Source of the DNA: Escherichia coli
GTDB taxonomy: Bacteria; Pseudomonadota; Gammaproteobacteria; Enterobacterales; Enterobacteriaceae
Direction: 5' to 3' (one strand)
Assembly (NCBI RefSeq): GCF_024502345.1
Contig: NZ_JALDNN010000001.1
Length of the DNA stretch: 64,000 nt
Under the pieces are notes generated by a model. That model did not search any database. It saw only the letters and a list, made by a program, of their open reading frames with translations, and was not told the DNA's origin. The position numbers and the translations under genes are program-made. Positions 12,160-33,153 of this stretch are shown here, one piece after another (the stretch's first letter is position 1; each line of letters opens with the position of its first letter).

Positions 12160-12195
12160 AGAGAAATGGGGATGAGGATTCGCCCCTTCAAGGGG
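12160..12195 (-). promoter_or_regulatory. sigma32 heat-shock promoter of groSL
   Basis: Minus-strand TTTCCCCCTTGAAGGGGCGAATCCTCATCCCCATTTCTC contains -35 CTTGAA and -10 CCCCATTT with 15-bp spacing, matching the sigma32 consensus. Confidence 0.7.
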
Positions 12196-12358
12196 GAAAA
12201 AGAAAAAAAATTCTGATCAGCACAAAATCGGGTGAAAACCCTGATTCACCTCACATTTCATCGCAATTTCTTCATCGCCGTCATAAGCGAATCTGATTGT
12301 GCTACCATCGAAAATCTACGCAGTTGCCCAAAATTTGGGCGCAATCGGATATCAACCC

Positions 12359-13615
12359 ATGAGTGGACTCAAACAAGAACTGGGGCTGGCCCAGGGCATT
12401 GGCCTGCTATCGACGTCATTATTAGGCACCGGCGTGTTTGCCGTTCCTGCGTTAGCTGCACAGGTAGCAGGCAATAACAGCCTGTGGGCGTGGCCCGTTT
12501 TGATTATCTTAGTGTTCCCGATTGCGATTGTGTTTGCGATTCTGGGTCGCCACTATCCCAGCGCAGGCGGTGTCGCGCACTTCGTCGGTATGGCGTTTGG
12601 TTCGCGGCTTGAGCGAGTCACCGGCTGGTTGTTTTTATCGGTCATTCCCGTGGGTTTGCCTGCCGCGCTACAAATTGCCGCCGGGTTCGGCCAGGCAATG
12701 TTTGGCTGGCATAGCTGGCAACTGTTGTTGGCAGAACTCGGTACGCTGGCGTTGGTGTGGTATATCGGTACTCGCGGTGCCAGTTCCAGTGCAAATCTAC
12801 AAACCGTTATTGCCGGACTTATCGTCGCACTGATTGTCGCTATCTGGTGGGCGGGCGATATCAAACCTGCGAGTATCCCCTTCCCCGCGCCAATAAATAT
12901 CGAACTTACCGGGTTATTTGCTGCGTTATCAGTGATGTTCTGGTGTTTTGTCGGTCTTGAAGCATTTGCCCATCTTGCCTCGGAATTTAAAAATCCAGAA
13001 CGTGATTTTCCTCGTGCTTTGATGATTGGTCTGCTGCTGGCAGGATTAGTCTACTGGGGCTGTACGGTAGTCGTCTTACACTTCGACGCCTATGGTGAAC
13101 AAATGGCGGCGGCAGCATCGCTTCCAAAAATTGTAGTGCAACTGTTCGGAGTAGGAGCGTTATGGATTGCCTGCGTGATTGGCTATCTGGCCTGCTTTGC
13201 CAGTCTCAACATTTATATACAGAGCTTCGCCCGTCTGGTCTGGTCGCAGGCGCAACATAATCCTGACCACTACCTCGCACGCCTCTCTTCTCGCCATATC
13301 CCGAATAATGCCCTCAATGCGGTGCTCGGCTGCTGCGTGGTGAGCACGCTGGTGATTCATGCTTTAGAGATCAATCTGGACGCTCTTATTATTTATGCCA
13401 ATGGCATCTTTATTATGATTTATCTGTTATGCATGCTGGCAGGCTGTAAATTATTGCAAGGACGTTATCGACTACTGGCGGTCGTTGGCGGGCTGTTATG
13501 CGTTCTGTTACTGGCAATGGTCGGCTGGAAAAGTCTCTATGCGCTGCTCATGCTGGCGGGGTTATGGCTGTTTTTGCCAAAACGAAAAACGCCGGAAAAT
13601 GGCATAACCACATAA
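12359..13615 (+). CDS. yjeH: amino-acid exporter YjeH (APC superfamily)
   Basis: 418-aa polytopic membrane ORF from MSGLKQELGLAQGIGLLSTSLLGTGVF; the track ORF begins 20 codons upstream. Confidence 0.85.
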   Translation: MSGLKQELGLAQGIGLLSTSLLGTGVFAVPALAAQVAGNNSLWAWPVLIILVFPIAIVFAILGRHYPSAGGVAHFVGMAFGSRLERVTGWLFLSVIPVGLPAALQIAAGFGQAMFGWHSWQLLLAELGTLALVWYIGTRGASSSANLQTVIAGLIVALIVAIWWAGDIKPASIPFPAPINIELTGLFAALSVMFWCFVGLEAFAHLASEFKNPERDFPRALMIGLLLAGLVYWGCTVVVLHFDAYGEQMAAAASLPKIVVQLFGVGALWIACVIGYLACFASLNIYIQSFARLVWSQAQHNPDHYLARLSSRHIPNNALNAVLGCCVVSTLVIHALEINLDALIIYANGIFIMIYLLCMLAGCKLLQGRYRLLAVVGGLLCVLLLAMVGWKSLYALLMLAGLWLFLPKRKTPENGITT

Positions 13616-13630
13616 TCCGGCGTTTCGACA

Positions 13631-14107
13631 TTAATCCTGGCGATCGTCTTTATGATCAAGGCGGTCGCGGTCATCATCCTTTCGCTGGTACTCACCATCA
13701 AAAGTATTACCGCCACCGGTCCCGGCGCTAAAACCGCCGCCTGGCATACGAGAAAAGCGCAAATGCGGCATCAACTTCACTGTCAGATGCTTTTGCACCG
13801 GCGGCAATAAAAGCAGAAGACCGAGGAAGTCGGTGAAAAAGCCCGGTAATAAAAGCAGCAAACCGGCAATGATCAGCGAAACACTTTTAATCATCTCCGC
13901 CGCTGGGTTTTCACCCGCCGCCATTTTTTGCTGCATCAGCACGAAATTCTTAAAGCCCTGGTTACGTACCAGTGACATACCGATAACTGACGTGAATATA
14001 ACCAGCACGAGGGTCAGCAATACCCCCAATACATGGGCAACCTGAATAAAGATTGAAATCTCAATATAGACATAAAGGAAAATGGCAATAAAAGGTAACC
14101 AGCGCAA
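13631..14107 (-). CDS. fxsA: FxsA inner membrane protein (F-exclusion of phage T7 suppressor)
   Basis: 158-aa ORF MRWLPFIAIFLYVYIEISIFIQVAHVLGV with acidic C-terminal tail. Confidence 0.9.
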   Translation of the reverse strand: MRWLPFIAIFLYVYIEISIFIQVAHVLGVLLTLVLVIFTSVIGMSLVRNQGFKNFVLMQQKMAAGENPAAEMIKSVSLIIAGLLLLLPGFFTDFLGLLLLLPPVQKHLTVKLMPHLRFSRMPGGGFSAGTGGGNTFDGEYQRKDDDRDRLDHKDDRQD

Positions 14108-20144: not shown

Positions 20145-20220
20145 GCCCGGATAGCTCAGTCGGTAGAGCAGGGGATTGAAAATCCCCGTGTCCTTGGTTC
20201 GATTCCGAGTCCGGGCACCA
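20145..20220 (+). tRNA. pheU: tRNA-Phe (GAA anticodon)
   Basis: 76-nt GCCCGGATAGCTCAGTCGGTAGAGCAGGGGATTGAAAATCCCCGTGTCCTTGGTTCGATTCCGAGTCCGGGCACCA with anticodon loop TTGAAAA and 3-prime CCA; position after yjdC corresponds to pheU. Confidence 0.97.
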
Positions 20221-21071
20221 ATATTCATAAGGCCTCGCTGCAAAGCGGGGCTTTTTCCTTTTCTGGCTACGGTAGATTTCTGGTCGTTGCGGCACGTTAT
20301 TTGTTTGCTGGATTTCTCGCCATTTTCGCAGTTGTTCGTTACTTTTAGACACCTCAACATCCTTTGATGTACCTTTTCCTAACCTCACAGCTACGGTCTT
20401 TCTACGGTCCTCTACGATTCCTTTCTCTCAGAGCATTCATAATAAAGTAGAAAATACGGGGAAAACGGGGGAATTATCATTTCGCCCTAATCCGCAGGTC
20501 TTAACGTGATTTTGTCGCGGGGAATAAGGTGGGGAAATCCCCAATAGCAAGCGGGGAAATCTGGCAGCATACCCCCTCCACCATTCACATGGGGATCTTC
20601 ACCAGTCCGTCCACCTACAACAAGCTCTTCTTGCCCTTTCACTTCTTACCGTTTTCAGAATCCCCCGTTCTCCACGCCATCATAAAATGATTTATCCGTA
20701 AGCTTAACGTAATGGACTGTTGAACCTGAGTGTCCGCTGTGAGCGAAAAGCGGAACTTCTCACATAGGTAATGAAGCGTTTCCTAACGTCAGGGTGTACT
20801 AATCAACGAAGAGCAGGTCAGAGGACTCGAACCGCTTTCCTCTTCCATCTACGTAGAATTCCAAGAATTTATGTGCTTTCCAGTTACAATTTAGCCATGC
20901 TAAGTTAGAAAAAGCATTGAGTACCTTAGGATTGTATCGATGATACTCTAAGGATCTTGGAGGCTTGTGAGGCGTAAGGTTCAAAGCCAATAGTTTATTA
21001 ATAGTCACACAAGTGGCTCTATTTTTCGCCTACAAACCTATATTTTTCATACAAATAAAAGAAGTGTATTT

Positions 21072-22490
21072 ATGAATACTCAGCAAATTAAGGTTGGCAG
21101 TGTACCTGAAATTATTGAGCTATTACCAAACTCTAGCGAGCAGGCTGATTCTCATCCTTTCATCCTATCGGCAAACAGTGCATGGGGTGAACAGGGAGCA
21201 GAAATATCAATAGAGAGATTACGCCAAAATATCGAGCCTTGGCTAACAGCTCTCTTCCAATCCGAACATTTAAATTTATTGATAGGTGCGGGTTTAAGCA
21301 CGTCTATTCAAATATCGGCTACAGATTCACCTCCAGCTGGAATGGGTTGGATCAGCGATCTAGCCGTATGTAAAAGTGAAATAGATGCATTTTCTACTCT
21401 GGCTGCCAAAGCTGCAGGTCGCGATAACGGAAATATAGAAGATCAAATTAGAGCTATTAATGAACTTATTAAAGGGCTTGAAATTCTGACAGTGTTGAAT
21501 ACCCCTCAACCTGAAAATCCTCCAGCTCCTCATGCTGCTTATAGAAATCTAAAAACGGATTTAGAAATACTCAAGGGAGAGCTTTCTCGCTGCCTAGGTG
21601 AGTTTTCAAGATCTGTGAGTGCCGGAGAATACTTGATTAAAACTGCTGAACCAAAGCGTAAAGAGGAAACTTTCAACTATCTAGTTAGTTTCTTGATGAG
21701 CTTTGCAAGTAGGACCGCTACTCGCGATAGGTTGCATATTTTTACAACAAACTATGATCGCATTATTGAAGTAGGTGCTGAGCTTGCTGGTTTGAGACTT
21801 ATAGATCGCTTTGTAGGAAGTATCGCTCCAGTGTTTCGATCTTCAAGATTGGAGGTTGATTATCACTATAATCCTCCAGGAATTCGTGGCGAACCAAGAT
21901 ATTTAGAAGGCGTAGCGCGTTTTACTAAGCTTCATGGATCCCTTGATTGGCATGAACAAAATAGCGCGATTAGGCGCTTTGGTTTACCTTTTGGAGCACG
22001 TTCTGTTGAACCTTTTTTAGAAGCTGAAGGCCATCAAAGCAACAGCTTTGAACAACTTATGATTTACCCTAACTCAGTAAAAGATAGAGAAACTGCCGAG
22101 TACCCTTATGTTGAGCTATTTCGAGATCTAGCCGCAGCAACTAGCCGCCCAAATAGCACATTAGTCACCTATGGCTATAGCTTTGGTGATGAGCATATCA
22201 ACAGGGTAATTGAAGACATGCTTACAGTGCCTTCGACTCATGTAGTCATAATTGCCTTCGGAGATCCGCTTGGAAGAATCATAAATTTCATTAATAAGAG
22301 TGGAAGAAAAGCACAGATCACCCTATTAATGGGAGACCATTTAGGAGACCTCAAGACTTTAGTTGATAACTATTTACCTAAACCAGCTATTGATAAAGCA
22401 TCAATAAAAATGACTGAATTGCTTAAGCAAAGAGGATTTATCCAGCCCAAAGAATTAGGTAATTCAACTGGCTCCGAGGTATCACAATGA
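21072..22490 (+). CDS. SIR2-like NADase component of a SIR2-HerA anti-phage system
   Basis: 472-aa ORF with SIR2-family motifs GAGLS (in LLIGAGLSTS), TTNYD (in HIFTTNYDRII) and HGS (in TKLHGSLDW); translationally coupled to the downstream HerA-like gene. Confidence 0.8.
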   Translation: MNTQQIKVGSVPEIIELLPNSSEQADSHPFILSANSAWGEQGAEISIERLRQNIEPWLTALFQSEHLNLLIGAGLSTSIQISATDSPPAGMGWISDLAVCKSEIDAFSTLAAKAAGRDNGNIEDQIRAINELIKGLEILTVLNTPQPENPPAPHAAYRNLKTDLEILKGELSRCLGEFSRSVSAGEYLIKTAEPKRKEETFNYLVSFLMSFASRTATRDRLHIFTTNYDRIIEVGAELAGLRLIDRFVGSIAPVFRSSRLEVDYHYNPPGIRGEPRYLEGVARFTKLHGSLDWHEQNSAIRRFGLPFGARSVEPFLEAEGHQSNSFEQLMIYPNSVKDRETAEYPYVELFRDLAAATSRPNSTLVTYGYSFGDEHINRVIEDMLTVPSTHVVIIAFGDPLGRIINFINKSGRKAQITLLMGDHLGDLKTLVDNYLPKPAIDKASIKMTELLKQRGFIQPKELGNSTGSEVSQ

Positions 22491-24520
22491 GTTACTTACC
22501 AATAGAAAGATTAGAACAATTAAGAATTGGATCTGTTGGATTTGTATCACCTAATGAAATTAGAGTTTCTTTAGAGATTGACTCCCCTGATTCAGTGTCA
22601 CTTCAAGGCGGTTCCCCCCGCAATTTTCCTCGAATAAATAGTTATGTACTGATCAGTAGCGATGATGGATTTCTCGTCGGACAGGTTGAATGGATTGCCG
22701 TAGAACACTCTCCATACCCCAAAAGAAGAGGCTTACAAGATTTTGGCTTGATAGATCTTCCTTTTCCACTTAAAAAGCTCAGTATCAATCCCGTTGGTAC
22801 TTTGAGAGTCGATAGAAAAAACGAAGATTACAAGTTCACAAGAGGAACAGATGCTTTTCCCTCGGTTGGTGACTCCGTGCTCCTGCCTACTGACCGGCAA
22901 TTAAAATCAATAATAGAATCAGGTGACAATAGAAGAGTAAAAATAGGGGACAGCCCCCTAGCTAACAATGCGGAAATAAAAGTGGACCCTGATAGGCTTT
23001 TTGGACGACATTTAGCTGTTTTGGGCAATACAGGTAGTGGTAAATCATGCTCGGTTGCGGGGTTAATTCAATGGTCTTTAGATGCTGTTTTACAACAGGG
23101 ACAGATTCCAAATGCTCGGTTCATAATACTTGATCCAAATGGAGAATACAGTAGGGCATTCGGCCCAGAATCAAAATACAAGGGTAAGCTATTACGTGTA
23201 GAAGCTAACACTGGTGCTGAAGAGATAGATCTTAAAGTTCCGTCATGGTTATGGAATAGCTCTGAGTGGGGTGCTTTCACTCAAGCGAGTTCAAAAGTTC
23301 AACTTCCTTTACTACGCCGAGCTTTGAGGGCGATGAGAAATGATGTTTTATCAGAAGATGATGTGACAATCCAAGCGAAACACTTCTGCGGTATCCTACT
23401 CGTATCCATACGACAATTATCAAGCCAAGGCCAGATATATGTGAATGGCGGCCATGCCAAAGGTTTCGTTGATAGTTTAACGTCTTGGAATAATAGCCTG
23501 TCCACATTAAACGACAAAATCGATAACAAACCTTTCGATAATCTAATAAACACGATGAATGTGTATCTTTCCTCTCGTATAGGAATAAAATGGCCTGAAA
23601 AACCTGAAGTTTCAGATACTGATCAGTTGATTAATGAATTAAAAAATGCATATGAAACGCTTGGAGGTGATGAACAAGGACTTCTTCCAAAAAGTGAAGA
23701 TTCGCCTATTCGTTTTAAAGGGGATGATTTTGTCGCATACCTAGAAGCTCTAGCTCAAGAGACAGGCACAGAGCAATTCGTTGAATTCCTTTTGACTCGT
23801 ATTCGAACAATGCTAGGTGACACCCGTATAAGTGCAGTAACAAATGATTCGGAACAGCCTATCAGTTTAACTAATTGGTTAGACACTTTTCTCGGTAGAG
23901 ATGGACAAGGTTCCATAACTGTTATCGATTTATCGCTAGTCCCTAATGAAATAATACATTTGGTAACTGCTGTAATTTCCAGAGTAACTTTTGAAGCATT
24001 ACAACGTTATCGAAGACTTAAGGGGAAACCACTACCAACAGTTATGGTTGCAGAAGAAGCGCATACATTTATTAAACGCTACAAAGAAGATAGTGAGGGT
24101 CAGTCAGTCTCTGACGTATGCTGCAAAGTGTTTGAAAAGATCGCACGTGAAGGCAGGAAATTTGGGTTAGGTCTTGTAGTTTCTTCCCAACGACCCTCAG
24201 AGCTATCTCCGACTGTGTTATCTCAATGTAATACTTTTTTGTTGCACAGGATTAGTAATGATAGAGATCAAGAGCAAGTCCATAGACTTGTTCCCGATAA
24301 CATGAGGGGGTTGTTGAGGGAGTTGCCATCGCTACCATCTCGGCATGCCATTCTACTAGGATGGGCTTCTGAACTTCCGGTTTTAGTTAGAATGAAAGAG
24401 CTTACTGAAAAACAAAGACCACAATCTGACGATCCCGATTTTTGGGATGTGTGGTCTAACACTACAGAAGAGCCTCGCGAAGTTAATTGGCAACCAATAG
24501 CTGATGATTGGCAAAGTTAA
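22487..24520 (+). CDS. HerA-like FtsK/HerA-family ATPase of the SIR2-HerA system
   Basis: 677-aa ORF with Walker A GNTGSGKS, Walker B MVAEEAH and SSQRPSEL region; start overlaps the SIR2 stop (ATGA). Confidence 0.8.
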   Translation: MSYLPIERLEQLRIGSVGFVSPNEIRVSLEIDSPDSVSLQGGSPRNFPRINSYVLISSDDGFLVGQVEWIAVEHSPYPKRRGLQDFGLIDLPFPLKKLSINPVGTLRVDRKNEDYKFTRGTDAFPSVGDSVLLPTDRQLKSIIESGDNRRVKIGDSPLANNAEIKVDPDRLFGRHLAVLGNTGSGKSCSVAGLIQWSLDAVLQQGQIPNARFIILDPNGEYSRAFGPESKYKGKLLRVEANTGAEEIDLKVPSWLWNSSEWGAFTQASSKVQLPLLRRALRAMRNDVLSEDDVTIQAKHFCGILLVSIRQLSSQGQIYVNGGHAKGFVDSLTSWNNSLSTLNDKIDNKPFDNLINTMNVYLSSRIGIKWPEKPEVSDTDQLINELKNAYETLGGDEQGLLPKSEDSPIRFKGDDFVAYLEALAQETGTEQFVEFLLTRIRTMLGDTRISAVTNDSEQPISLTNWLDTFLGRDGQGSITVIDLSLVPNEIIHLVTAVISRVTFEALQRYRRLKGKPLPTVMVAEEAHTFIKRYKEDSEGQSVSDVCCKVFEKIAREGRKFGLGLVVSSQRPSELSPTVLSQCNTFLLHRISNDRDQEQVHRLVPDNMRGLLRELPSLPSRHAILLGWASELPVLVRMKELTEKQRPQSDDPDFWDVWSNTTEEPREVNWQPIADDWQS

Positions 24521-24941
24521 TTAACTTAACTAATTTTTAGTAGTGTTATAAGTAGTGGCTTATATCTGACATGACAGTTTAGGTTAGTAGTTTCAATCTA
24601 ACAGTAAGTGTCCACGGTGACGTTTTCATACTCAAATCTCCTGAAATGTGGGAGATTTGAGTATGGTTGTCCCTTATGAGCGAGGAGCGGAAGTTCTGCT
24701 TTAAGTGTATCAAACCCTCCAGCAAAGATGTTCTTGAATGTAATGCCATAATTTCCCTAACATTCCAGCACAAATCAATTAACTCTCAGTCCATAGTGTA
24801 TTTTACTTAAATTAAAATCAAATACTCTAGGAATTAAAATAACAAGATCACTTGCGATTATGCTATTTTAAATTAATATTTTTGTTTTTACTGGGGAACC
24901 TTCAAAACACGGAGCCAGATTTCTTCGTAGCTACCCTGTTG

Positions 24942-25766
24942 CTAGGGTTTCAAGTATTCCCCTAAAGGAAAGAAATTTTTTGACAACTTTTGGGATTCAG
25001 CAATTTTAACCAAATAAATATAGAATCCCAACAGAGCACTGTTCTCGCTTTCCCCCCTCGAATAGTGAACATGCCCAGGCACCTTCCGGATGAGGAAACC
25101 ATTATTTTTTACCAAATAATACCCTCTATCTAAAATTGTAATTACATCAGGCATATCATCTAAATCGATATTATTTCCAGTCATGTAATTAAACAGCGAA
25201 TCTCGTAAGGTACTTTCCTCTGGACCTTGGAAGGCTAGTAGTAAGAATGGTGTTTTTCTCAAGGTTGCACACATCCCTGAGATTTCCTCTACTAATTGCA
25301 CTGTATTTTGGGGAATATTTTCTTTCATAAAATAACCATCGTCAATACCGATTGGATTGATTCTTACCAAACCTTTTGACCTAACGCAAGCATCTAAGGT
25401 TGTCTTAAGGTTTGAAGCTCCTTCGGTCATTGAGCCAGTGTTTAATGAAGATTTACATTCAATTAACGCTAAAGCTGAATCGACAGGGACCATACACTGA
25501 TCTTTATCATAACTAAGTTTTAAAGAATGTTTCGAGTATATGATAATATCCATCTGACTTGAGAGATTATCCTTAGAGTCAAAAACCTGTCCTGATGTAA
25601 TATCTAAATTACTAGGGAGATTTGCTTTTAAAAATTCCCTTATTACAATTTCTCTAGCACTTCCTTTGCTACTCCCGTTCGTCGTTATGGATGACAAATT
25701 AAATGCTGAAACCAAAGATGCCGTATGGTTTTTTAAGTGTTTCTGGATTAATTTCATAAAGCTCAT
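24942..25766 (-). CDS. hypothetical protein, possible PD-(D/E)xK-like nuclease
   Basis: 274-aa ORF in AT-rich DNA convergent with herA; candidate motifs E (GSAREIVI), D (MDIIIYS) and ExK (ALIECKS); no family assigned with confidence. Confidence 0.5.
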   Translation of the reverse strand: MSFMKLIQKHLKNHTASLVSAFNLSSITTNGSSKGSAREIVIREFLKANLPSNLDITSGQVFDSKDNLSSQMDIIIYSKHSLKLSYDKDQCMVPVDSALALIECKSSLNTGSMTEGASNLKTTLDACVRSKGLVRINPIGIDDGYFMKENIPQNTVQLVEEISGMCATLRKTPFLLLAFQGPEESTLRDSLFNYMTGNNIDLDDMPDVITILDRGYYLVKNNGFLIRKVPGHVHYSRGESENSALLGFYIYLVKIAESQKLSKNFFPLGEYLKP

Positions 25767-26194
25767 TCCATTTTAATTTATCTACATCGCTTAAAGGCAA
25801 ATGATGCCACCGGCTACCAATTAAAAATTATCTCAACCTGAGAGATTTTTCCAGACTCCAAACGAAAATAAAAAACTACTCGTCACGTCCCTCCTGGCAC
25901 ATAGCCGACACCAAAACCAGCAACATATGGACAACGGTCCCTGCCCTGATGGCAGGTAATTGTATCAGACTTAAACACATATTATTTCTGTGAACTCCCC
26001 CCAACGGCAGTCCTTTCCTCTGAAGACCAGAACCAGACCGTAAAGCCTGCTCTTTCTGCATTTCCCGTATTAATTCATACCATGTGGCACCAGCATTCCC
26101 TTCGCCACACCAGAAAATCAATTCCCCAATAAAAAAGTGCCGTGCCGGGGATGGGTCAACCCTGACGTTCTTTACACCAGTCACAGGAGGTTAT

Positions 26195-27379
26195 ATGTCC
26201 ACCCCCAAACGCTTCCGTTTTACTAATCAGCTCATTAAATCCCTGCCCCCTAACACATCCGATGCACGCAGTACCGATGCCGAATACAGCGACACCGAGA
26301 TTTCCGGCCTCAAGTGTCTGGTCAGCAGAAGAGAAGGTCGTAAAAAGTTTTTGCTACGCTACCTTTATCATGGACGAAAACGCGCCATCGCCATTGGTCA
26401 CTGGCCTGAAGTGGACGTCAATCTTGCTCGTCAGATTGCCATAGAACACAAACGTTCCCTTGCCACCGGCACTGACCCTAAGCAGGAGCGTGAAAACAAG
26501 AGAATGGAGCTGACGTTCGATGAACTCTTTAATCAGCATTATCTGCCATGGGCAAAATCCGCTAAACGCAGTTGGGGAAAGGATGTTCAGCGCTACCGCG
26601 ATCATATCCGTCCCGCCATTGGTCAGAGGCTGCTGAGCGATATCACACCAGCGAGCATTCTGCGCCTTCAGCAGACGTTAAGTACTTCCCTGTCAGCAGC
26701 TACCTGTAACCGTGTCATCGTACTCATTAAAGCCGTCTTTACATGGGCCGGAAGGCAAAGCATGACCTCTGTCCATCCGGCAAGGGTGGTACAGCTTCTC
26801 AGGGAGAACAACGCCCGACAGCGCTATTTCACCGAGGACGAAATTCGTCGTATTTTTCTCTCCGCCGATAACGATACCAGCCCCGTCGCGGCCCGCTATG
26901 TCAAACTGTTGTTACTGACCGGCCTTCGTCGTGATGAGCTGCGTCTGGCTAAGTGGGAGCATGTTGACCCGGTTAAACGCACCCTGTGGCTCCCGGAAAC
27001 CAAGAATGGCTATGGGCGGATTGTTCACCTTAACTCACTGGCGATGGACGTAATCAGAACGCTGCCAACGCAGCGGGGAAATCCGTGGTTGTTTATCGGT
27101 AAAAAACAAGGAATGCCGCTGAATAACCCCGTTAAAGCCTTTCAGCGTATCGTTCGTCGGGCGGGAATTTTCGACCAGGAAGTGTGTATTCATACCTGCC
27201 GCCATTCGGTTGCCGCCCTCATCGTGTCCTACGGCGGAACACTGTATGACGTTCAGGCTCAACTGGGGCACCGCAGCAGTCAGTCTTCACAACGTTATGC
27301 GCATCTTCACCCTCAGCGCTTACAAAACACCAGTCAGTTACTGGCGGAAAGGATAACGGCTCAGCTACCGTCCTTGTGA
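26195..27379 (+). CDS. tyrosine-type site-specific integrase
   Basis: 394-aa ORF from ATG 26195 preceded by AGGAGG; catalytic boxes TGLRRDELRLAKWEHVD and HTCRHSVAAL...LGHRSSQSSQRYAHL (R, HxxR, Y). Confidence 0.85.
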   Translation: MSTPKRFRFTNQLIKSLPPNTSDARSTDAEYSDTEISGLKCLVSRREGRKKFLLRYLYHGRKRAIAIGHWPEVDVNLARQIAIEHKRSLATGTDPKQERENKRMELTFDELFNQHYLPWAKSAKRSWGKDVQRYRDHIRPAIGQRLLSDITPASILRLQQTLSTSLSAATCNRVIVLIKAVFTWAGRQSMTSVHPARVVQLLRENNARQRYFTEDEIRRIFLSADNDTSPVAARYVKLLLLTGLRRDELRLAKWEHVDPVKRTLWLPETKNGYGRIVHLNSLAMDVIRTLPTQRGNPWLFIGKKQGMPLNNPVKAFQRIVRRAGIFDQEVCIHTCRHSVAALIVSYGGTLYDVQAQLGHRSSQSSQRYAHLHPQRLQNTSQLLAERITAQLPSL

Positions 27380-27434
27380 TAACAGAAAAGCAGAGGCAAG
27401 TGCCCCTGCTTTTTTTTTACTGTTCAGCCATCAG

Positions 27435-27791
27435 TCAGAACGGGATGGCCCCATATTCTTCATCCGGCACCCGGTTATCATCAAATCTGTTATAGAGTTC
27501 ACGAGCACACTCGCGCGCGTCTTTAATAGACATACGAGGGAACCTGCCGAGGGGTTCATAATAGCAGGCCCCTTCAAGCGTATAACGAGCCAGGAATTTA
27601 ATCTCACCGTTGGCAATGACGGCCCGGAGCGCAGGCTCGCTGCCATCGAAGATTTCACGAGAAATGCCGTGATAAAGGCACTCCGCCAGTGTGTTAACCA
27701 GAGCGTAATCATTGAATGAGGTTTTTTCTTCATTTTCGCTGCTGATAGCGTGAGGAAAACCGTCATAGTACTGGTCTGATTCAAAAATCAT
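27435..27791 (-). CDS. hypothetical protein
   Basis: 118-aa ORF directly downstream of and co-oriented with the DUF927-like gene. Confidence 0.45.
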   Translation of the reverse strand: MIFESDQYYDGFPHAISSENEEKTSFNDYALVNTLAECLYHGISREIFDGSEPALRAVIANGEIKFLARYTLEGACYYEPLGRFPRMSIKDARECARELYNRFDDNRVPDEEYGAIPF

Positions 27792-27840
27792 ACATCACCT
27801 TCTATTGGTTGTTATTCAGTCAAAATGGTTTTATTCAGGG

Positions 27841-29769
27841 TTAAAATTCGGTCATCACATTGCATTTCAGAAACGCTTTTTTGACCTGGTAGTAAGACTG
27901 CGCCATCGTCTTCAGCGCTCTTTTTTTATAGTGTCCGGCACTTTCGCCAAGCAGATAACCGGAACGCTCTAACGGTCTGGCCACATCAACGGTCTTAAGT
28001 CCCTTTTCAGAACAGAGCTTTTCAAACACCGATTCATAAATCAGGAAGTCGCCGGTTTTGTAATGGACGAATCCCCACATATCTCCCGGGCATCGGGCAT
28101 GTTCGTCACGCAGGGTGATAAAGTGCCTGCTGCTTTTTGTCACCAGCGTCAGCTGAAGCTCCTCCAGCATGTTACGCACCGGGTTATACTGATTCTGGTT
28201 ATCATCCAGCCAGCGTCGTGCAGCGGACATAACGGATTCAGCCACCGCATCGCTTTCGAAAGGTAAAAGGCCATATTTCAGCGCCTTCTCTCCTGCCAGC
28301 CATACCAGCGCAAATCTTTTCAGTCCGCGCCGCTGAACGCGGGTAATATCACGCCCCTCATCCCTCAGGGCCTCTTCCAGTGCGTTACAGCAATCATCTG
28401 TCTGTTCCTGGAGCCAGGATGAAAACTCTGCGTAGGTGCGAAGACCGCCAGCCGTATTTTTCCCGGATAACAGTTTGCCGATAAATGCAGGCCCGGCATG
28501 ACCATAAGCCTCTGCCAGCCCCGTCTTCAGTGCATCTGCACGGGCACGTGTTTCTGATACCGGTTCATCCGGTTTTTGAGCATCCTCAGGCAACAGTTCC
28601 ATACTGATGGCCCTGTGCTCCTGCCCTCCCTGTAACACGGCTTTCTGTTCAGCCAGCTTTTCGGAGATTGACATCTCACCGGTGGAGAGAATAAACATGC
28701 GCCATTTAAACGGCTCATCTGCCGTCAGGCCACGGTTCAGGCGCTCTTTTGCCGTACCTGACGTAATGTTGTAAAGCAGTGAGGAAAGTTGCTTATGATT
28801 ACTCGCACCCAGTTCATCGACGCAGGCGACCAGACCGGAATAGTCAGCGAGAAGGCGCTCCATCGCGTTAGGCGTGGTATTCCAGCGAATAATATTTACA
28901 TTCCCCCCACTACCCGGCTCGCTGCCATCACCATGGACCGATGCAGCCAGCATCAGGAGAAGCGTTTTACCGGTGGTGGATACGCCGTGAAAATGAAACA
29001 TGCCCACATCCATACCGGCAGGAACCAGAAGCATCGAAGCAAAGGACGCACTCAGTGCAAAGGTCTGCGCCCAGCCATGGACATTTTCCCGGATGAGGTT
29101 AATCCACTCCTCCAGGGCCCCACCTTTGTGCAGTCCGGGACGCACGCGGAATCCCGGCAGTAGATAATCAAACCCGGTCAGAGAGGTCACAACGGGCTCA
29201 TGACCATGTAAAAAGGCCATATCCTCCGAAACGAATCCCATCGCATCTGCCATCAGATAGACAGGCAGCGGTAAACTCCGGCAGCGCTGAAGAAAACGGT
29301 CAAAAAGGGCAAACTGCTGTGGAGAGGAGCCAACACAAAATCCACGATCTGCCAGTTTGCCTACTACCTGAGCACCGCTCTGAACAATATCCTCAAAGCG
29401 TACCAGGGCCTTAACATACTTACCCAGCCCGTTACCGGTCATCAGGCTGATCCCAAGACCGGACTCCTTATCTTTTCCACAAAACAGGGCGACAGGCACA
29501 ACTGGCGTGGTGCAAACCTGCACAGGTTTCTGTCCACCGATGTAGAAAAGGCCATTAGCCGTATTCACATAATGCCGTGGCAGCCCATCACCAATACCGA
29601 GTGAAGCGATATCATCTTCACCGACCTCAGTGTTTTCAGCACGCCTGATAATTGCTTCCGACATTTTGTTGAAATTTTTATCGCGGTCAGCAAAAGCGCG
29701 AATACGCTTAATCCCGGAAACCTTAGGAACATTAGTTGTCACTTTTTTATTCATGTGTATTACCATCAA
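27841..29769 (-). CDS. DUF927-type P-loop NTPase, putative replication initiation (primase/helicase-like) protein of an integrative element
   Basis: 642-aa ORF with Walker A GVSTTGKT and Walker B-like VACVDELG; co-oriented immediately downstream of an integrase gene. Confidence 0.6.
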   Translation of the reverse strand: MMVIHMNKKVTTNVPKVSGIKRIRAFADRDKNFNKMSEAIIRRAENTEVGEDDIASLGIGDGLPRHYVNTANGLFYIGGQKPVQVCTTPVVPVALFCGKDKESGLGISLMTGNGLGKYVKALVRFEDIVQSGAQVVGKLADRGFCVGSSPQQFALFDRFLQRCRSLPLPVYLMADAMGFVSEDMAFLHGHEPVVTSLTGFDYLLPGFRVRPGLHKGGALEEWINLIRENVHGWAQTFALSASFASMLLVPAGMDVGMFHFHGVSTTGKTLLLMLAASVHGDGSEPGSGGNVNIIRWNTTPNAMERLLADYSGLVACVDELGASNHKQLSSLLYNITSGTAKERLNRGLTADEPFKWRMFILSTGEMSISEKLAEQKAVLQGGQEHRAISMELLPEDAQKPDEPVSETRARADALKTGLAEAYGHAGPAFIGKLLSGKNTAGGLRTYAEFSSWLQEQTDDCCNALEEALRDEGRDITRVQRRGLKRFALVWLAGEKALKYGLLPFESDAVAESVMSAARRWLDDNQNQYNPVRNMLEELQLTLVTKSSRHFITLRDEHARCPGDMWGFVHYKTGDFLIYESVFEKLCSEKGLKTVDVARPLERSGYLLGESAGHYKKRALKTMAQSYYQVKKAFLKCNVMTEF

Positions 29770-29838
29770 ATTACGCCACCGTCAGAAAACGGGTGCATCA
29801 GAACCATAGTTAAAAACCATACCGTTGAGTGAAGGTTG

Positions 29839-31251
29839 TTACCCCATCGCCCGGTTAACGACTTCGTGGTAACGCGCCGGGGAAGCGTGCAAGTAAAGCT
29901 CCGTTACTTTGATAGTGCTGTGACCCAATAAGTCTTTGACGGTGTGAATGTCGGCCCCGCTCTCAATGAGCTTTGTCGCAAAGGTATGACGCATCTCATG
30001 GATGGTGAACGGTGGAATACCCGCAGCCTCACAAAGTCGTTTTTGCAGGCGACGCGGCTCAGCAACCGGATTGTCGGTTCCCTTGCCCGGAAATACCCAG
30101 CCTTCATCACCCAGATGCTGACGCTGTTCTGTCAGAAGAACGAAAGCCTTATCACATACCGGTACACGGCGTAGTTTGCCGTTTTTGGTATGGCGAAGGG
30201 TGATAACCTTGCGGCTCCAGTCCACATCTTCAAGACGAAGGTGACGGGTTTCCCCCAGACGCAGCCCCGTCAGGGCAAGGAACATGAGAAGAGCAAGGGC
30301 TTCATGATCGGGTTTACCATTACGCCAGCGCTCACAGACGTCCATCCAGCGCTGAAGCTGGGAGTCATCCATGGCACGGCGATCTGACGTCACTTCAGGC
30401 AGCGCTTTGATATAAAGCGCCGGAGAGCGGCTGATGTATCCCATGCGTATAGCCCAGGTAAACACCGCTTTAATGAGCGCCAGATGGCGGTTGCGGGTGG
30501 CAGGCTTGAGATCGAGATTATGCAGATAGCTCAGAATATCTGCCTCCGTCATACCTGCCAGCTTTTTGTCACCGAGAAGAGGGCGCAGGTATTTACGGAT
30601 CTTAGAAAGGTCGGTGTTAGCTGAACGCTTAACGCCCGTGCTGAGTACGCTTTTCTCATACTCATCCACAAGCTCATTAAACGTCATTTTACTGTGAGTA
30701 AGAAAACGCTCACCGTAAGCCTCAACGGCGGTCTTGAGCTCCTGAATTATTTTAAAGGCATGCTCCCTTGCATCTTTAATTGAAATTTCCGGGTAGCCTC
30801 CTACGGCAACGTAGATATTCTTTCCGCGAATACTTTTGCGGACAATAAATTTAATGCGACCTGATGGATAGAATATTGCCTTAAGTCCGGTTAACTTCTT
30901 ATCGCTGGTCTCGATTGTTTGTGCAGCTTGTACTGCACGGATTTTATATTCATCAAAAAGGGCTTTAGTAAAAACACCTCCAGTATTTTTAGGTGCAACC
31001 CCTGGATATTCTACAACATCAGATACTCCAGAGTCGGAATACCCCTGAGCTTCCACATCTACATTGAAGGAATTTTTATGAGCAGCTGTGATGCTCTTTT
31101 CATCCAGCACTTGCGTTATTTTATTTAAAGGGTAATTAACTTTCATAATATGTACATGGTCCTCTGAAAATTCAGATGATAATGAGTAATTTAATATGTC
31201 GGCCAACAATGGGATAAGCTTATTTATTCGTGGCATCACTTTCAAGCCCAT
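29839..31251 (-). CDS. tyrosine-type site-specific integrase
   Basis: ORF with catalytic boxes ALTGLRLGETRHLRLEDVD and HEMRHTFATKLIESGADIHTVKDLLGHSTIKVTELYLH; true start codon uncertain. Confidence 0.85.
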   Translation of the reverse strand: MGLKVMPRINKLIPLLADILNYSLSSEFSEDHVHIMKVNYPLNKITQVLDEKSITAAHKNSFNVDVEAQGYSDSGVSDVVEYPGVAPKNTGGVFTKALFDEYKIRAVQAAQTIETSDKKLTGLKAIFYPSGRIKFIVRKSIRGKNIYVAVGGYPEISIKDAREHAFKIIQELKTAVEAYGERFLTHSKMTFNELVDEYEKSVLSTGVKRSANTDLSKIRKYLRPLLGDKKLAGMTEADILSYLHNLDLKPATRNRHLALIKAVFTWAIRMGYISRSPALYIKALPEVTSDRRAMDDSQLQRWMDVCERWRNGKPDHEALALLMFLALTGLRLGETRHLRLEDVDWSRKVITLRHTKNGKLRRVPVCDKAFVLLTEQRQHLGDEGWVFPGKGTDNPVAEPRRLQKRLCEAAGIPPFTIHEMRHTFATKLIESGADIHTVKDLLGHSTIKVTELYLHASPARYHEVVNRAMG

Positions 31252-31423
31252 GAAAAATCAGCTCTTACATGCCCATTGACATTTAATACTCAAGTCAGAA
31301 AGACCATGATGATTCATCAGGAGTACTCCTGCTCAGGGAAAAGGGAAAATAGCGTTAAACCCTATAAAAAAATTGTGTTCCGGATGCATCGCCCAAAGTA
31401 AGTCAACTTTTGAGGCCCTGAAG

Positions 31424-32468
31424 GGCTTTGTTGAATAAATCAGATTTCGGGTAAGTCTCCCCCGTAGCGGGTTGTGTTTTCAGGCAATACGCACGCTTTC
31501 AGGCATACCTGCTTTCGTCATTTTGTTCAGCGCTCGTACCAGGGCCATAGCCTCCGCAACCTGACCATCGTAGTCACGCAGCGTCAGTGAACCCCCGAAC
31601 AGCTGTTTTACCCGGTACATCGCCGTTTCCGCTATCGAGCGACGGTTGTAATCTGTTGTCCATTTCCACCGCGCATTACGCTGATTAGCCACTGCACGGT
31701 TACGGTCTGCATATTCACCGGGCCAGTAACCCGCACCTTTTCGGGGAGGGATAAGCGCGCTGATTTTCTTACGCCGCAGTTCATCGTGACAGAGCCGGGT
31801 GTCGTAAGCGCCGTCTGCCGATGCTGCCCTGATTTTTCTGTGAGTCTGCCGGATAAGACCCGGGAAGGCTTCTGAGTCCGTCACATTGTTCAGCGACAGG
31901 TCAGCGCAGATGATTTCATGTGTTTTACTGTCAACGGCGAGATGCAGCTTACGCCAGATACGGCGGCGTTCCTGGCCATGCTTTTTGACTTTCCACTCGC
32001 CTTCACCGAAGACCTTCAGCCCGGTGGAATCAATTACCAGGTGTGCGATTTCACCCCGGGTGGGCGTTTTGAAACTGACGTTAACCGACTTTGCCCGCCT
32101 GCTGACACAGCTGTAATCCGGGCAGCGTAGCGGAACGTTCATCAGAGAAAAAATGGAATCAATAAAGCCCTGCGCAGCGCGCAGGGTCAGCCTGAATACG
32201 CGTTTAATGACCAGCACAGTCGTGATGGCAAGGTCAGAATAGCGCTGAGGTCTGCCTCGTGAAGAAGGTGTTGCTGACTCATACCAGGCCTGAATAGCTT
32301 CATTATCCAGCCAGAAAGTTATGGAGCCACGGTTGATGAGGGCTTTATTGTAGGTGGGCCAGTTGGTGATTTTGAACTTTTGCTTTGCCACGGAACGGTC
32401 TGCGTTGTCGGGAAGATACGTGATCTGATCCTTCAACTCAGCAAAAGTTCGATTTATTCAACAAAGCC
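31424..32468 (-). mobile_element. IS5-family, IS903-group insertion sequence
   Basis: 18-bp terminal inverted repeats GGCTTTGTTGAATAAATC at 31424..31441 and 32451..32468, flanked by a 9-bp direct duplication GCCCTGAAG (31415..31423 and 32469..32477). Confidence 0.9.
31480..32436 (-). CDS. IS903-group transposase (DDE)
   Basis: 318-aa ORF filling the IS; C-terminal segment DGAYDTRLCHDELRRKKISALIPPRKGAGYWPGEYADRNRAVANQR recalled as IS903-type transposase. Confidence 0.85.
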   Translation of the reverse strand: MKDQITYLPDNADRSVAKQKFKITNWPTYNKALINRGSITFWLDNEAIQAWYESATPSSRGRPQRYSDLAITTVLVIKRVFRLTLRAAQGFIDSIFSLMNVPLRCPDYSCVSRRAKSVNVSFKTPTRGEIAHLVIDSTGLKVFGEGEWKVKKHGQERRRIWRKLHLAVDSKTHEIICADLSLNNVTDSEAFPGLIRQTHRKIRAASADGAYDTRLCHDELRRKKISALIPPRKGAGYWPGEYADRNRAVANQRNARWKWTTDYNRRSIAETAMYRVKQLFGGSLTLRDYDGQVAEAMALVRALNKMTKAGMPESVRIA

Positions 32469-32799
32469 GCCCTGAAGTAAGAAAATGGTAATAGACCCCA
32501 CCGATTTTCGACTAAAAAACAACCCAATAAGGCATTTAAAATTAATGCTATTTAAATCAATAGATTAAAGTGATGATTTTGACAATATGCAGCCCAACTT
32601 AAGGGTAAATCAACCTTTCAACAATCAAAACCACACTCCATTAATTTTTATTATTGTGACAATCATCACATTTTACACCTGCGGGTGCTTTGATTTTGTA
32701 CATTCACAAAGCTCACCAACCCCAACGACTATGAACGTAAAAAACCTCTTTTTATGCACATATTATTTCCATGTAAATCAATTCATTATGGAGATAATC

Positions 32800-33153
32800 A
32801 TGTTCAAGCTCACGACACCCACCAGTCTTCCCCTTCTCAAACTGTCCGCCTCCGCGCTGGAAGCCCTCAGCAATGAAATCCTTGGCCCCGTCGATGATAT
32901 CGACCTGTTTACCGCCTTCTGGAACGAAACGGAAACCCTGCTCTGGCATCTCAACCATGATGACACGCTGCCCGAAGACCCGCTGCTGGCAGTTGCACTG
33001 GCTAACCCGGAATACGTCACCGCACTTGATGATGGCTGGTATCTGCTTCTCGGTATCGTCTGTGATAACGGACAGGGTATCTATCTGGTATTCCCGGACA
33101 CGACCATTATCACTCAACTCCAGAACCTGATTGAGGCGCTGAACCATGAGTAA
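32800..33153 (+). CDS. hypothetical acidic protein (gene 1 of the four-gene cassette)
   Basis: 117-aa ORF from ATG 32800 preceded by GGAGA; rich in D/E; stop overlaps the next gene start by 8 nt. Confidence 0.55.
   Translation: MFKLTTPTSLPLLKLSASALEALSNEILGPVDDIDLFTAFWNETETLLWHLNHDDTLPEDPLLAVALANPEYVTALDDGWYLLLGIVCDNGQGIYLVFPDTTIITQLQNLIEALNHE

What the first reader, a model, noticed from the sequence alone, without database searches (positions are those of the whole stretch)
21072..24520. SIR2-HerA two-gene anti-phage operon immediately downstream of tRNA-Phe
Seen in sequence: two translationally coupled genes (ATGA overlap at 22487..22490) in visibly AT-rich DNA. The first protein carries SIR2-type NADase motifs GAGLS, TTNYD and HGS. 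The second carries HerA/FtsK-type Walker A GNTGSGKS and Walker B MVAEEAH. Established knowledge: SIR2 plus HerA forms a characterised defence system (described about 2020) that assembles into a large complex and depletes NAD+ on infection. Inference: this is a functional copy carried as island cargo.
Basis: partly seen in the sequence, partly recalled or inferred. Interest (0 to 1): 0.65.

Follow-up and report, generated by a model that had tools for sequence, protein, structure and literature searches.

The report
Intact SIR2-HerA phage-defence operon in island
This is an intact copy of a known two-gene bacterial anti-virus system (a SIR2 NAD+-destroying enzyme paired with a HerA ATPase), carried as a small mobile cassette in a genomic island next to a tRNA-Phe gene of E. 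coli; standard tools recognise it, so it is real but ordinary.

Summary
There are two overlapping ORFs, 21072..22490 (472 aa) and 22487..24520 (677 aa), sharing an ATGA. All the quoted motifs are present. GC is 41% against 51% in the core genome. tRNA-Phe lies 851 bp upstream.

PADLOC SIR2 and HerA profiles match almost end to end (E 2.7e-154 and 2e-252). The catalytic Asn227, Asp229 and His288 and the Walker A Lys186 align with residues that were mutated in characterised systems. dN/dS is about 0.1. The pair is conserved as a unit in unrelated mobile elements: a P2-like prophage, an SXT-like ICE, the Citrobacter koseri chromosome and an Acinetobacter island.

The operon sits in a variable slot between attL and the integrase of a ~26-kb pheU island. 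That island is bounded by 23-bp tRNA repeats and also carries HEC-05 and a type I R-M system.

It is a divergent subtype. Its SIR2 is about 22% identical to the solved E. coli Sir2, and both proteins score below the NCBIfam equivalog cut-offs. I found no experimental test of this subtype, so NAD+ depletion and complex formation are inferred by homology.

Novelty and interest are low: this is a known kind of system that is already catalogued.

The parts
20145..20220 (+). tRNA-Phe (GAA), the pheU locus after dsbD and dicD. Its 3' end is the attL-side repeat of the island.
   Evidence: ARAGORN; Rfam tRNA 68 bits; RefSeq annotation of the identical locus in strain cS33a.
20758..21071 (+). Non-coding leader that travels with the operon. 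About 310 bp are shared with the C. koseri copy. About 190 bp are shared with the P2-prophage and V. cholerae ICE copies. It presumably holds the promoter, which I did not locate.
   Evidence: DNA alignments. The simple sigma-70 scan found no + strand promoter-like site upstream of SIR2.
21072..22490 (+). SIR2-family NADase gene (472 aa). GAGLS at aa 72-76; catalytic N227 and D229 in TTNYD; H288 in HGS.
   Evidence: PADLOC PDLC04079, E 2.7e-154, residues 43-460 on profile positions 28-419 of 430. Pfam SIR2_2. PDB 8j4u_A, E 2.5e-21 alone and 3.4e-29 with a profile. Foldseek top 35 hits are all SIR2 subunits of SIR2-HerA complexes. Motifs.
22487..24520 (+). HerA-family ATPase gene (677 aa). Walker A GNTGSGKS (K186), Walker B MVAEEAH (aa 520-526), SQRP at aa 567-570. 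Its start codon overlaps the SIR2 stop codon (ATGA).
   Evidence: PADLOC PDLC04098, E 2e-252, residues 5-676 on profile positions 4-684 of 686. Pfam DUF87 (HerA central domain), 3e-18. PDB 8wiv_A (Paenibacillus HerA) 2.7e-50 and 8j4u_M (E. coli HerA) 1.8e-36. Motifs.
20740..20760 (+). Left copy of a diverged direct repeat flanking the cassette (TGAGCGAAAAGCGGAACTTCT).
   Evidence: Pattern search: 2 matches in the window, about 0.01 expected. Alignment of the two boundaries.
24611..24698 (-). 88-bp remnant of a small (~200 aa) site-specific integrase gene: its leader plus its first six codons (MKTSPW). It includes a perfect 15-bp hairpin (24627-24641 / 24651-24665) and the right copy of the flanking repeat (24677-24697). 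It marks the right edge of the cassette.
   Evidence: The block is present in 744 of 5426 E. coli genomes at the 5' end of annotated integrase genes. Translation of the intact gene. RNA fold z-score about -5.
46297..46319 (+). Exact 23-bp repeat of the tRNA-Phe 3' end. This is the far (attR-side) boundary of the ~26-kb island that carries the operon. A second island, with its own integrase at 46517..47782, follows.
   Evidence: the DNA search: 2 exact matches, 0 expected. Integrase hit.

Best explanation
The two genes form an intact SIR2-HerA ('Nezha') anti-phage system.

By homology, the HerA ATPase forms a hexamer that docks a double-ring SIR2 oligomer into a roughly 1-MDa complex. On phage infection the SIR2 subunits hydrolyse NAD+ to ADP-ribose and nicotinamide, using Asn227, Asp229 and His288. 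Characterised homologues also show ATPase, helicase and nuclease activities. NAD+ loss starves the phage of NAD+ and stops infection at the cost of the infected cell's growth.

Shown here: gene integrity, family membership, conservation of the catalytic and ATPase residues, purifying selection, conservation of the pair as a unit, and mobile-element context.

Inferred from homologues: complex formation, NADase activity, the trigger, and phage resistance.

The operon is a self-contained ~3.85-kb cassette (about 20758-24603). It lies in a variable slot between attL (the tRNA-Phe 3' end) and the integrase (ORF 26084..27379; probable ATG at 26196) of a ~26-kb pheU island.
For: - Profile matches: PADLOC SIR2 E 2.7e-154 and HerA E 2e-252, both near full length.
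- Phage-protein families: PHROGs phrog_9581 and phrog_7035, both near full length.
- PDB by sequence: only SIR2 subunits of SIR2-HerA complexes are hit by the SIR2 protein. HerA subunits of anti-phage complexes lead the HerA hits.
- Fold: the AlphaFold model's top 35 Foldseek hits are all Ec, Sa or Ps SIR2-HerA SIR2 chains. SPARSA, DSR2 and classical sirtuins come only after them.
- Catalytic residues: N227 and H288 align with EcSir2 N168/H227 and SaSir2 N226/H287. Mutating these residues abolishes defence or NADase activity (PMC11559045, PMC11514289). D229 corresponds to PsSIR2 D165 (PMC11472057).
- ATPase: K186 aligns with PsHerA K173, whose mutation abolishes defence (PMC11472057).
- Selection: dN/dS is 0.10-0.12 against both the P2-prophage and the C. 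koseri copies, and all copies lack internal stops.
- Conserved pair: the 470-aa plus 675-697-aa pair is kept, overlapping or 2 nt apart, in a P2-like prophage, an SXT-like ICE, C. koseri, A. pittii and Thermanaerovibrio.
- Island context: low GC, att repeats, and HEC-05 and type I R-M in the same island.
Against: - No experiment on this subtype was found in the searched literature.
- It is distant from the characterised systems: 21-23% identity to EcSir2 and 16-19% to the Sa and Ps SIR2 proteins.
- It scores far below the NCBIfam equivalog cut-offs: 123.6 bits against 500 for SIR2, and 229.5 against 850 for HerA.
- The AlphaFold model is only moderate (mean pLDDT 63). It is poor around residues 242-290, which include His288.
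- No promoter was identified, so expression is unproven.
- Characterised homologues differ among themselves in stoichiometry (12:6 or 14:6) and in whether HerA hydrolyses ATP. The details for this subtype therefore cannot be transferred with confidence.
Confidence: 0.88

Rival explanations
1. The unit is really a three-gene system. In this reading the convergent downstream gene (24942..25766, minus strand; a DUF6602 / NucC-like PD-(D/E)xK nuclease) is a nuclease effector that works with SIR2-HerA, much as NurA works with archaeal HerA.
For: The gene lies 421 bp downstream of HerA in the same low-GC block (GC 0.36). Its N-terminal half matches NucC-type nuclease cores and keeps the D...ExK motif. 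The V. cholerae classical-biotype island also lists an endonuclease next to Nezha (PMC11559045).
Against: - It is on the opposite strand and lies outside the DNA shared with every other copy of the cassette.
- The neighbour in the same position differs in each context: PD-T4-7 in C. koseri, an EndA-like DNase in the ICE, an unrelated 229-aa protein in A. pittii, and gpD in P2.
- In the two E. coli genomes with the identical operon, most of this gene is replaced by IS903B.
- Its own homologues occur without SIR2-HerA.
Confidence: 0.04
2. The genes are a decaying or silent relic, or they have a housekeeping role (a sirtuin deacylase plus a HerA DNA-repair helicase), and are not an active defence system.
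For: No promoter-like site was found upstream. RefSeq annotates identical copies only as 'SIR2 family protein' and 'ATP-binding protein'. The archaeal repair HerA models give weak hits.
Against: - Both ORFs are full length against their profiles and orthologues, and dN/dS is about 0.1.
- No NurA, Mre11 or Rad50 partner is present. The repair-HerA models score 121 bits against a 970 cut-off, and 105 against 800.
- Classical sirtuins appear only at E of 2e-3 or worse in the fold search, well after the defence SIR2 proteins.
- Every context found, except the C. koseri chromosomal copy (which lies next to a PD-T4-7 defence gene), is a mobile element or a defence island.
Confidence: 0.05
3. It is a SIR2-HerA system whose main beneficiary is the mobile element: exclusion of competing phages or elements, or stabilisation of the island. 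The biochemistry is the same but the selective role differs.
For: Close copies sit in cargo positions of a P2-like prophage (between ogr and gpD) and of an SXT-like ICE (after traN). SIR2+HerA is listed among the cargo of P4-like satellite hotspots (PMC9122126).
Against: This is not exclusive of host defence, and nothing in the sequence tells the two roles apart. The C. koseri copy lies among ordinary chromosomal genes and was listed in 764 blocks of the assembly collection.
Confidence: 0.1

Closest known systems
E. coli SIR2-HerA / Nezha (Gao et al. 2020 system; structures 8su9, 8sub, 8uae, 8j4u)
   Same: Two-gene SIR2-then-HerA operon. It is the best PDB match for the SIR2 protein, by sequence (E 2.5e-21, or 3.4e-29 with a profile) and by fold (E 5.5e-17). 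The catalytic Asn and His align (N227/H288 with N168/H227). The Walker A and B motifs of HerA are present.
   Different: SIR2 is only about 21-23% identical and about 57 aa longer (472 against 415 aa), with a conserved N-terminal extension. HerA is 677 against 610 aa, and EcHerA is only the fifth-best HerA match in the PDB (1.8e-36). Both proteins score below the NCBIfam equivalog cut-offs.
Paenibacillus sp. 453MF SIR2-HerA (Garb et al. 2022; structures 8w9l, 8wiv, 8wld; PMC11472057)
   Same: It is the best PDB match for HerA (8wiv_A, 2.7e-50), aligning over the N-terminal barrel plus Walker A region and over the C-terminal ATPase. K186 aligns with K173. SIR2 N227/D229/H288 correspond to N163/D165/H212.
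   Different: The SIR2 match is weak (E 7.5e-9; 16-19% identity by fold). PsSIR2 is 381 aa. The reported Ps stoichiometry (14:6) differs from Ec and Sa (12:6), so the assembly of this subtype cannot be predicted.
Staphylococcus aureus Sir2-HerA (8yhx, 8yho; PMC11514289)
   Same: The TTNYD and HGS motifs align exactly with SaSir2 N226 and H287. The architecture is the same.
   Different: About 16-18% identity by fold. SaHerA lacks ATPase activity and SaSir2 lacks the C-terminal oligomerisation helix. Whether either applies here is unknown.
DUF4297-HerA defence systems (9c1m, 8xau, 8ziq)
   Same: Their HerA subunits match this HerA almost as well as SIR2-partnered ones do (1.3e-47 to 6.3e-44).
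   Different: The partner here is a SIR2 NADase, not a DUF4297 nuclease.
Other SIR2 defence effectors (Thoeris ThsA, DSR1/DSR2, SPARSA pAgo-associated SIR2)
   Same: The SIR2 NADase fold and the Asn/His active site.
   Different: No SLOG, TIR, pAgo or long sensor domains are present. These proteins appear only as weak hits: Aga_SIR2 at 7.8e-13, and SPARSA at 2e-6 and DSR2 at 1e-4 by fold.

Membership tests
SIR2-HerA (Nezha) anti-phage system | Adjacent, co-directional SIR2-family and HerA-family genes in one operon | tested here: met
   21072..22490 and 22487..24520 on the + strand, with a 4-nt ATGA overlap.
SIR2-HerA (Nezha) anti-phage system | The SIR2 component belongs to the HerA-associated SIR2 group rather than to other SIR2 families | tested here: met
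   PADLOC PDLC04079, 511.8 bits, near full length. All three PDB sequence hits, and the top 35 fold hits, are SIR2 subunits of SIR2-HerA complexes.
SIR2-HerA (Nezha) anti-phage system | NADase active-site Asn, Asp and His conserved | tested here: met
   N227, D229 and H288 are present. They align with EcSir2 N168/H227 and SaSir2 N226/H287. N227, D229 and H288 are invariant in 32 homologues down to 55% identity. The residues were validated by mutation in PMC11559045 and PMC11514289; PMC11472057 names PsSIR2 N163/D165/H212 as putative catalytic residues and reports that catalytic-residue mutants lose protection.
SIR2-HerA (Nezha) anti-phage system | HerA component with an N-terminal barrel, a RecA-like ATPase (Walker A Lys, Walker B acidic residues) and a C-terminal region | tested here: met
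   PADLOC PDLC04098, 837.7 bits, residues 5-676. Pfam DUF87. The alignment to PsHerA covers residues 14-261 and 459-660, with GxxGSGKS and EEAH conserved. Motifs.
SIR2-HerA (Nezha) anti-phage system | Reaches NCBIfam's curated equivalog cut-offs (SIR2_antiphage NF042942; HerA_antiphage NF042943 and NF042944) | tested here: not met
   123.6 bits against a cut-off of 500; 198.8 against 800; 229.5 against 850. These equivalogs model other subtypes. This is a divergent subfamily, which PADLOC models separately.
SIR2-HerA (Nezha) anti-phage system | The pair is inherited as a unit and lies in mobile elements or defence islands | tested here: met
   The same pair occurs in a P2-like prophage, an SXT-like ICE, the C. 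koseri chromosome next to PD-T4-7, an A. pittii integrase island, and inside a Thermanaerovibrio type I R-M operon. The window's own island also carries HEC-05 and a type I R-M system.
SIR2-HerA (Nezha) anti-phage system | Assembly of a SIR2 12- or 14-mer with a HerA hexamer | not testable with these tools
   Only single-chain prediction is available. This needs SEC or cryo-EM.
SIR2-HerA (Nezha) anti-phage system | Phage resistance with NAD+ depletion on infection | not testable with these tools
   This needs plaque assays and NAD+ measurement. No published test of this subtype was found.
Archaeal-type HerA-NurA DNA-end resection machinery | Repair-type HerA with an adjacent NurA (and Mre11/Rad50) | tested here: not met
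   NF040819 scores 121 bits against a 970 cut-off, and NF040937 scores 105 against 800. The neighbours are SIR2 and a DUF6602 protein, not NurA.
Thoeris / DSR / SPARSA SIR2 effectors | SIR2 fused to, or paired with, SLOG+TIR (Thoeris), long sensor domains (DSR) or pAgo (SPARSA) | tested here: not met
   None of these domains or partners appears in Pfam or PADLOC output. Only weak Aga_SIR2 hits were found, and these proteins rank low in the fold search.

The most novel reading that the evidence does not exclude
The 472-aa SIR2 / 677-aa HerA clade could be a mechanistically distinct, so far untested subtype of SIR2-HerA, with a different trigger, stoichiometry or N-terminal module.

It moves as a self-contained ~3.85-kb cassette with its own conserved 190-310-bp leader. 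It is found in P2 prophages, SXT-like ICEs, enterobacterial chromosomes and tRNA islands.

In the window the cassette is bracketed by diverged copies of a hairpin-bearing leader of a small site-specific integrase. This hints that such recombinase sites might act as entry points for defence cassettes.
Probability: 0.12. Interest if true: 0.45.

Novelty: already known. Interest (0 to 1): 0.22.

Why it matters
It adds one more confirmed defence module to a pheU island that also holds a HEC-05 candidate and a type I R-M system. This helps predict the strain's phage susceptibility, for example for phage therapy or typing.

The only modestly useful points beyond routine annotation are these:
- This subtype is rare in E. 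coli: 19 of 5426 complete genomes carry it.
- It is distant from the three structurally solved systems, and I found no experimental test of it.
- Its nearly identical cassette can be traced across four kinds of genomic context, which illustrates cassette-level exchange of defence genes.

Tried and rejected
- Third component. I tested whether the downstream DUF6602 / NucC-like gene belongs to the system and rejected it. It lies outside the conserved cassette, the neighbours differ in every context, and IS903B replaces it in the closest genomes.
- Intermediate att site. I looked for a copy of the tRNA 3' end between the operon and the integrase, to explain why the integrase is 6 kb from the tRNA. 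The only other copy is at 46297. Comparison with strain MLI023K2 instead showed a variable slot between attL and the integrase.
- V. cholerae Nezha. I checked whether the published V. cholerae system is this subtype, because a V. cholerae protein is 88% identical. Probably not. The published active-site numbering (N168/H227) is that of the 415-aa Ec type. The 88%-identical protein sits in an SXT-like ICE, not in the tonB-trmA island.
- Non-coding RNA. An Rfam scan of 19500-27500 found only the tRNA.
- Promoter and terminator. The scan gave no convincing promoter for the operon and no terminator after HerA.
- Minus-strand ORF in the leader. The 69-aa ORF at 20799..21008 is not conserved in frame in the P2 copy, so I treated it as spurious.
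- Structure. The AlphaFold model of SIR2 was only moderate (mean pLDDT 63). I used it for fold assignment only.
- Literature. Searches for an experimental test of this subtype, or of the P2-borne copy, found none. The library is incomplete.
Full report
**Observation**

The window is E. coli chromosome around dsbD-dicD-tRNA-Phe (pheU). An identical locus is annotated in strain cS33a. ARAGORN and Rfam place tRNA-Phe(GAA) at 20145..20220 on the + strand.

They share the four bases ATGA at 22487..22490.

All quoted motifs are present:
- SIR2: GAGLS at aa 72-76, TTNYD at aa 225-229, HGS at aa 288-290.
- HerA: GNTGSGKS at aa 180-187, MVAEEAH at aa 520-526.

Both genes have 40.7% G+C, against 51% for the first 20 kb of the window. 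The operon starts 851 bp after the tRNA, so 'immediately downstream' is slightly generous.

**Family assignment**

Against PADLOC-DB, the first protein matches a SIR2 model (PDLC04079) at E 2.7e-154, with residues 43-460 on profile positions 28-419 of 430. The second matches a HerA model (PDLC04098) at E 2e-252, with residues 5-676 on positions 4-684 of 686.

Pfam gives SIR2_2 and DUF87 (the HerA central domain). PHROGs has near-full-length families of unknown function for both proteins.

NCBIfam's 'SIR2_antiphage' and 'HerA_antiphage' equivalogs are hit, but far below their curated cut-offs: 123.6 bits against 500, and 229.5 against 850. This is therefore a different subfamily from the ones NCBI curated.

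In the PDB, the SIR2 protein matches only the SIR2 subunits of three solved SIR2-HerA systems:
- E. coli 8j4u/8su9 (E 2.5e-21; 3.4e-29 with a 32-sequence profile);
- S. aureus 8yhx;
- Paenibacillus 8w9l.

HerA matches, in order, Paenibacillus HerA (2.7e-50), three DUF4297-associated HerA proteins, E. coli HerA (1.8e-36), S. aureus HerA and archaeal HerA.

An AlphaFold model of SIR2 was only moderate (mean pLDDT 63, pTM 0.65, poor over residues 242-290). Its 35 best Foldseek matches in the PDB are nevertheless all SIR2 chains of SIR2-HerA complexes, at 16-23% identity. SPARSA, DSR2 and classical sirtuins rank well behind.

**Catalytic residues**

- The phmmer alignments put N227 and H288 on EcSir2 N168/H227 and on SaSir2 N226/H287.
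- N168A or H227A abolishes defence in the V. cholerae Nezha system, which uses Ec-type numbering (PMC11559045).
- H287 is required for SaSir2 NADase activity (PMC11514289).
- PsSIR2 N163/D165/H212 are named as the putative catalytic residues, and mutating catalytic residues of PsSIR2 abolished protection from T7 (PMC11472057). They correspond to N227/D229/H288.
- These three residues are invariant in 32 homologues down to 55% identity.
- HerA K186 aligns with PsHerA K173, whose mutation abolishes defence.
- The EEAH Walker B motif and the SQRP segment are also conserved in that alignment.

**Is it a working gene pair?**

Neither gene has an internal stop, and both have the lengths of their orthologues.

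Against the ~85%-identical copy in a P2-like prophage, dN/dS is 0.10 for both genes (dS about 0.6). Against the C. koseri copy it is 0.12 and 0.10. Both proteins are therefore under purifying selection.

I could not identify a promoter. The simple sigma-70 scan finds no + strand site upstream, and a terminator-like hairpin follows the tRNA. The operon presumably uses a promoter inside its own conserved leader.

**Distribution and context**

The SIR2 protein has more than 7000 relatives at E ≤ 1e-10 in the large protein collection. These include 98% identity in Citrobacter koseri and 88% in V. cholerae.

Only 19 of 5426 complete E. coli genomes carry the pair:
- Two strains, cS33a and fM51a, have it at 99.9% identity at the same pheU site.
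- Fifteen carry ~85%-identical copies. The two I opened lie in P2-like prophages between ogr and gpD.
- Two carry ~83%-identical copies. The one I opened lies in an SXT/R391-like ICE just after traN. The V. cholerae protein sits in the same kind of place.

The pair also occurs in the C. koseri chromosome next to a PD-T4-7 gene. It occurs next to an integrase in Acinetobacter pittii. It occurs nested inside a type I R-M operon in Thermanaerovibrio velox.

The convergent downstream neighbour is different in every case. The conserved functional unit is therefore the two genes.

**Cassette and island structure**

DNA shared with the C. koseri copy runs from about 20758 to about 24603. DNA shared with the P2 copy runs from about 20885 to about 24572. 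A ~190-bp leader is also recognisable in the V. cholerae ICE copy.

In the window the cassette is bracketed by a diverged direct repeat:
- 20740..20760, TGAGCGAAAAGCGGAACTTCT
- 24677..24697, TGAGCGAGGAGCGGAAGTTCT

Two matches were found where about 0.01 are expected.

The right copy is part of an 88-bp block (24611..24698). That block occurs in 744 of 5426 E. coli genomes as the leader and first codons of a ~200-aa site-specific integrase. It contains a perfect 15-bp hairpin. Here the integrase gene itself is gone.

The exact 23-bp 3' end of tRNA-Phe recurs at 46297..46319, so the island spans about 20221..46319. A second island, with its own integrase (46517..47782), follows.

In strain MLI023K2 the same island family has tRNA-Phe, then 262 bp, then a single 195-aa hypothetical gene, then the integrase, an Arm-type DNA-binding gene and a DUF927 gene. 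The stretch between attL and the integrase (window ~20483..25931) is therefore a variable cargo slot. In the window, SIR2-HerA and a DUF6602 gene occupy it.

The rest of the island carries a HEC-05 candidate (37394..39271) and a complete type I R-M system (39475..45433). The 'island cargo' inference is well supported.

**Mechanism**

The mechanism is transferred from the characterised systems. HerA hexamers bind a two-layer SIR2 oligomer, at 12:6 in the E. coli and S. aureus systems and 14:6 in Paenibacillus. Complex formation licenses the SIR2 NADase, and in two systems also ATPase, helicase and nuclease activities. Infection leads to NAD+ depletion and loss of phage replication (PMC11514289, PMC11472057, PMC11559045, bioRxiv 10.1101/2024.02.11.579819).

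For this locus I have shown the parts list, its integrity and its conservation. Assembly, the trigger and phage resistance are inferred.

The homologues disagree on stoichiometry and on HerA ATPase activity, and this subtype is only ~22% identical to EcSir2. Those details should not be assumed.

**Comparison and novelty**

This is a member of the SIR2-HerA (Nezha) kind by every sequence-level criterion I could test, apart from the NCBIfam equivalog cut-offs. It belongs to a subfamily that PADLOC-DB (2023) already models. It would be called automatically by standard defence-annotation tools.

Near-identical genes (99.9% nucleotide identity over the region) are in RefSeq, named only 'SIR2 family protein' and 'ATP-binding protein'.

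I found no paper that tests this 472/677-aa subtype. SIR2+HerA is listed among the cargo of P4-like satellite hotspots (PMC9122126), and tRNA-linked defence islands in E. coli are well documented (PMC10121019).

I therefore rate the finding as correct but ordinary: already known in kind, low interest.

The residual novelty is twofold. The subtype is experimentally uncharacterised. And the cassette, with its conserved leader, can be followed across a prophage, an ICE, a chromosome and a tRNA island.

Noticed in passing
window 24942..25766 (- strand): A 274-aa DUF6602 protein (Pfam 1.3e-20). Its N-terminal half matches the NucC / PD-(D/E)xK nuclease core and keeps the D...ExK motif (PDB Serratia NucC 9e-7; PADLOC PD_DExK 6e-27). 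No CD-NTase or CRISPR partner lies nearby. The family is rare (20 clusters found) and absent from all 5426 complete E. coli genomes. In P. aeruginosa a homologue sits in an integrase island, just after a DEAD-box helicase gene. It may be a stand-alone or two-gene defence candidate.
   Followed up: partly
window 24611..24698 and 20740..20760: An 88-bp block with a perfect 15-bp hairpin (RNA fold z about -5). It is the leader plus the first six codons of a ~200-aa site-specific integrase, and it occurs in 744 of 5426 E. coli genomes (for example in a lambdoid prophage accessory region). A diverged copy of its 3' part flanks the other side of the SIR2-HerA cassette. It could be a recombination or entry site for cassettes. 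This was not tested.
   Followed up: partly
window 20758..21071: The non-coding leader upstream of SIR2 is conserved along with the operon in C. koseri (~310 bp) and in the P2-prophage and V. cholerae ICE copies (~190 bp). The simple scan finds no sigma-70-like promoter in it. A weak terminator-like hairpin lies at 21003..21018. Its regulatory role is unknown.
   Followed up: partly
window 20221..46319 and 46297..64000: Two islands lie in tandem at pheU. The exact 23-bp tRNA-Phe 3' end repeats at 46297..46319, followed by a second integrase (46517..47782). The second island carries a phosphoethanolamine-transferase-like gene (48104..49603, -), an Adr-like adhesin gene (49763..50503, -) and two heavy-metal P-type ATPases (53563..56064 and 57160..59655, -).
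   Followed up: partly
window 37394..45433: Other defence cargo in the same island: a HEC-05 candidate protein (37394..39271; PADLOC 3.9e-231) and a complete type I restriction-modification system, hsdM 39475..41031, hsdS 41028..42200 and hsdR 42317..45433.
   Followed up: partly
window ~20483..25931; L006 (E. coli MLI023K2): The stretch between attL and the island integrase is a variable cargo slot. MLI023K2 has the same integrase / Arm-binding / DUF927 backbone but only one 195-aa hypothetical gene in the slot. LEE-pheU strains share only the first ~476 bp after the tRNA.
   Followed up: partly
window 26084..32436: Island backbone: a tyrosine integrase (ORF 26084..27379; probable ATG at 26196); a small Arm-type DNA-binding gene (27435..27791, -); a DUF927 / Cch-like replicative helicase (27841..29769, -); a second tyrosine recombinase (29839..31251, -); and an IS5-family transposase (31480..32436, -).
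   Followed up: no
L001 (E. coli cS33a) 13072..14040; window 24700..26083: The only two complete E. coli genomes with the identical SIR2-HerA operon at pheU are cS33a and fM51a. In both, an IS903B copy replaces most of the DUF6602 gene.
   Followed up: yes
L012 (Thermanaerovibrio velox) 3977..13410: A 59%-identical SIR2-HerA pair is nested, with overlapping stop and start codons, inside a type I R-M operon: hsdM, SIR2, HerA, hsdS, a Fic/RhuM gene, hsdR. A BrxC/PglY-like gene lies next to it. This is an unusual embedded arrangement.
   Followed up: no
L004 (Citrobacter koseri) 11760..12785: In C. koseri the 98%-identical SIR2-HerA pair lies among ordinary chromosomal genes. It is convergent with a PD-T4-7 single-gene defence system (PADLOC 1.9e-142), forming a mini defence islet. 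The SIR2 protein was listed in 764 blocks of the assembly collection.
   Followed up: partly
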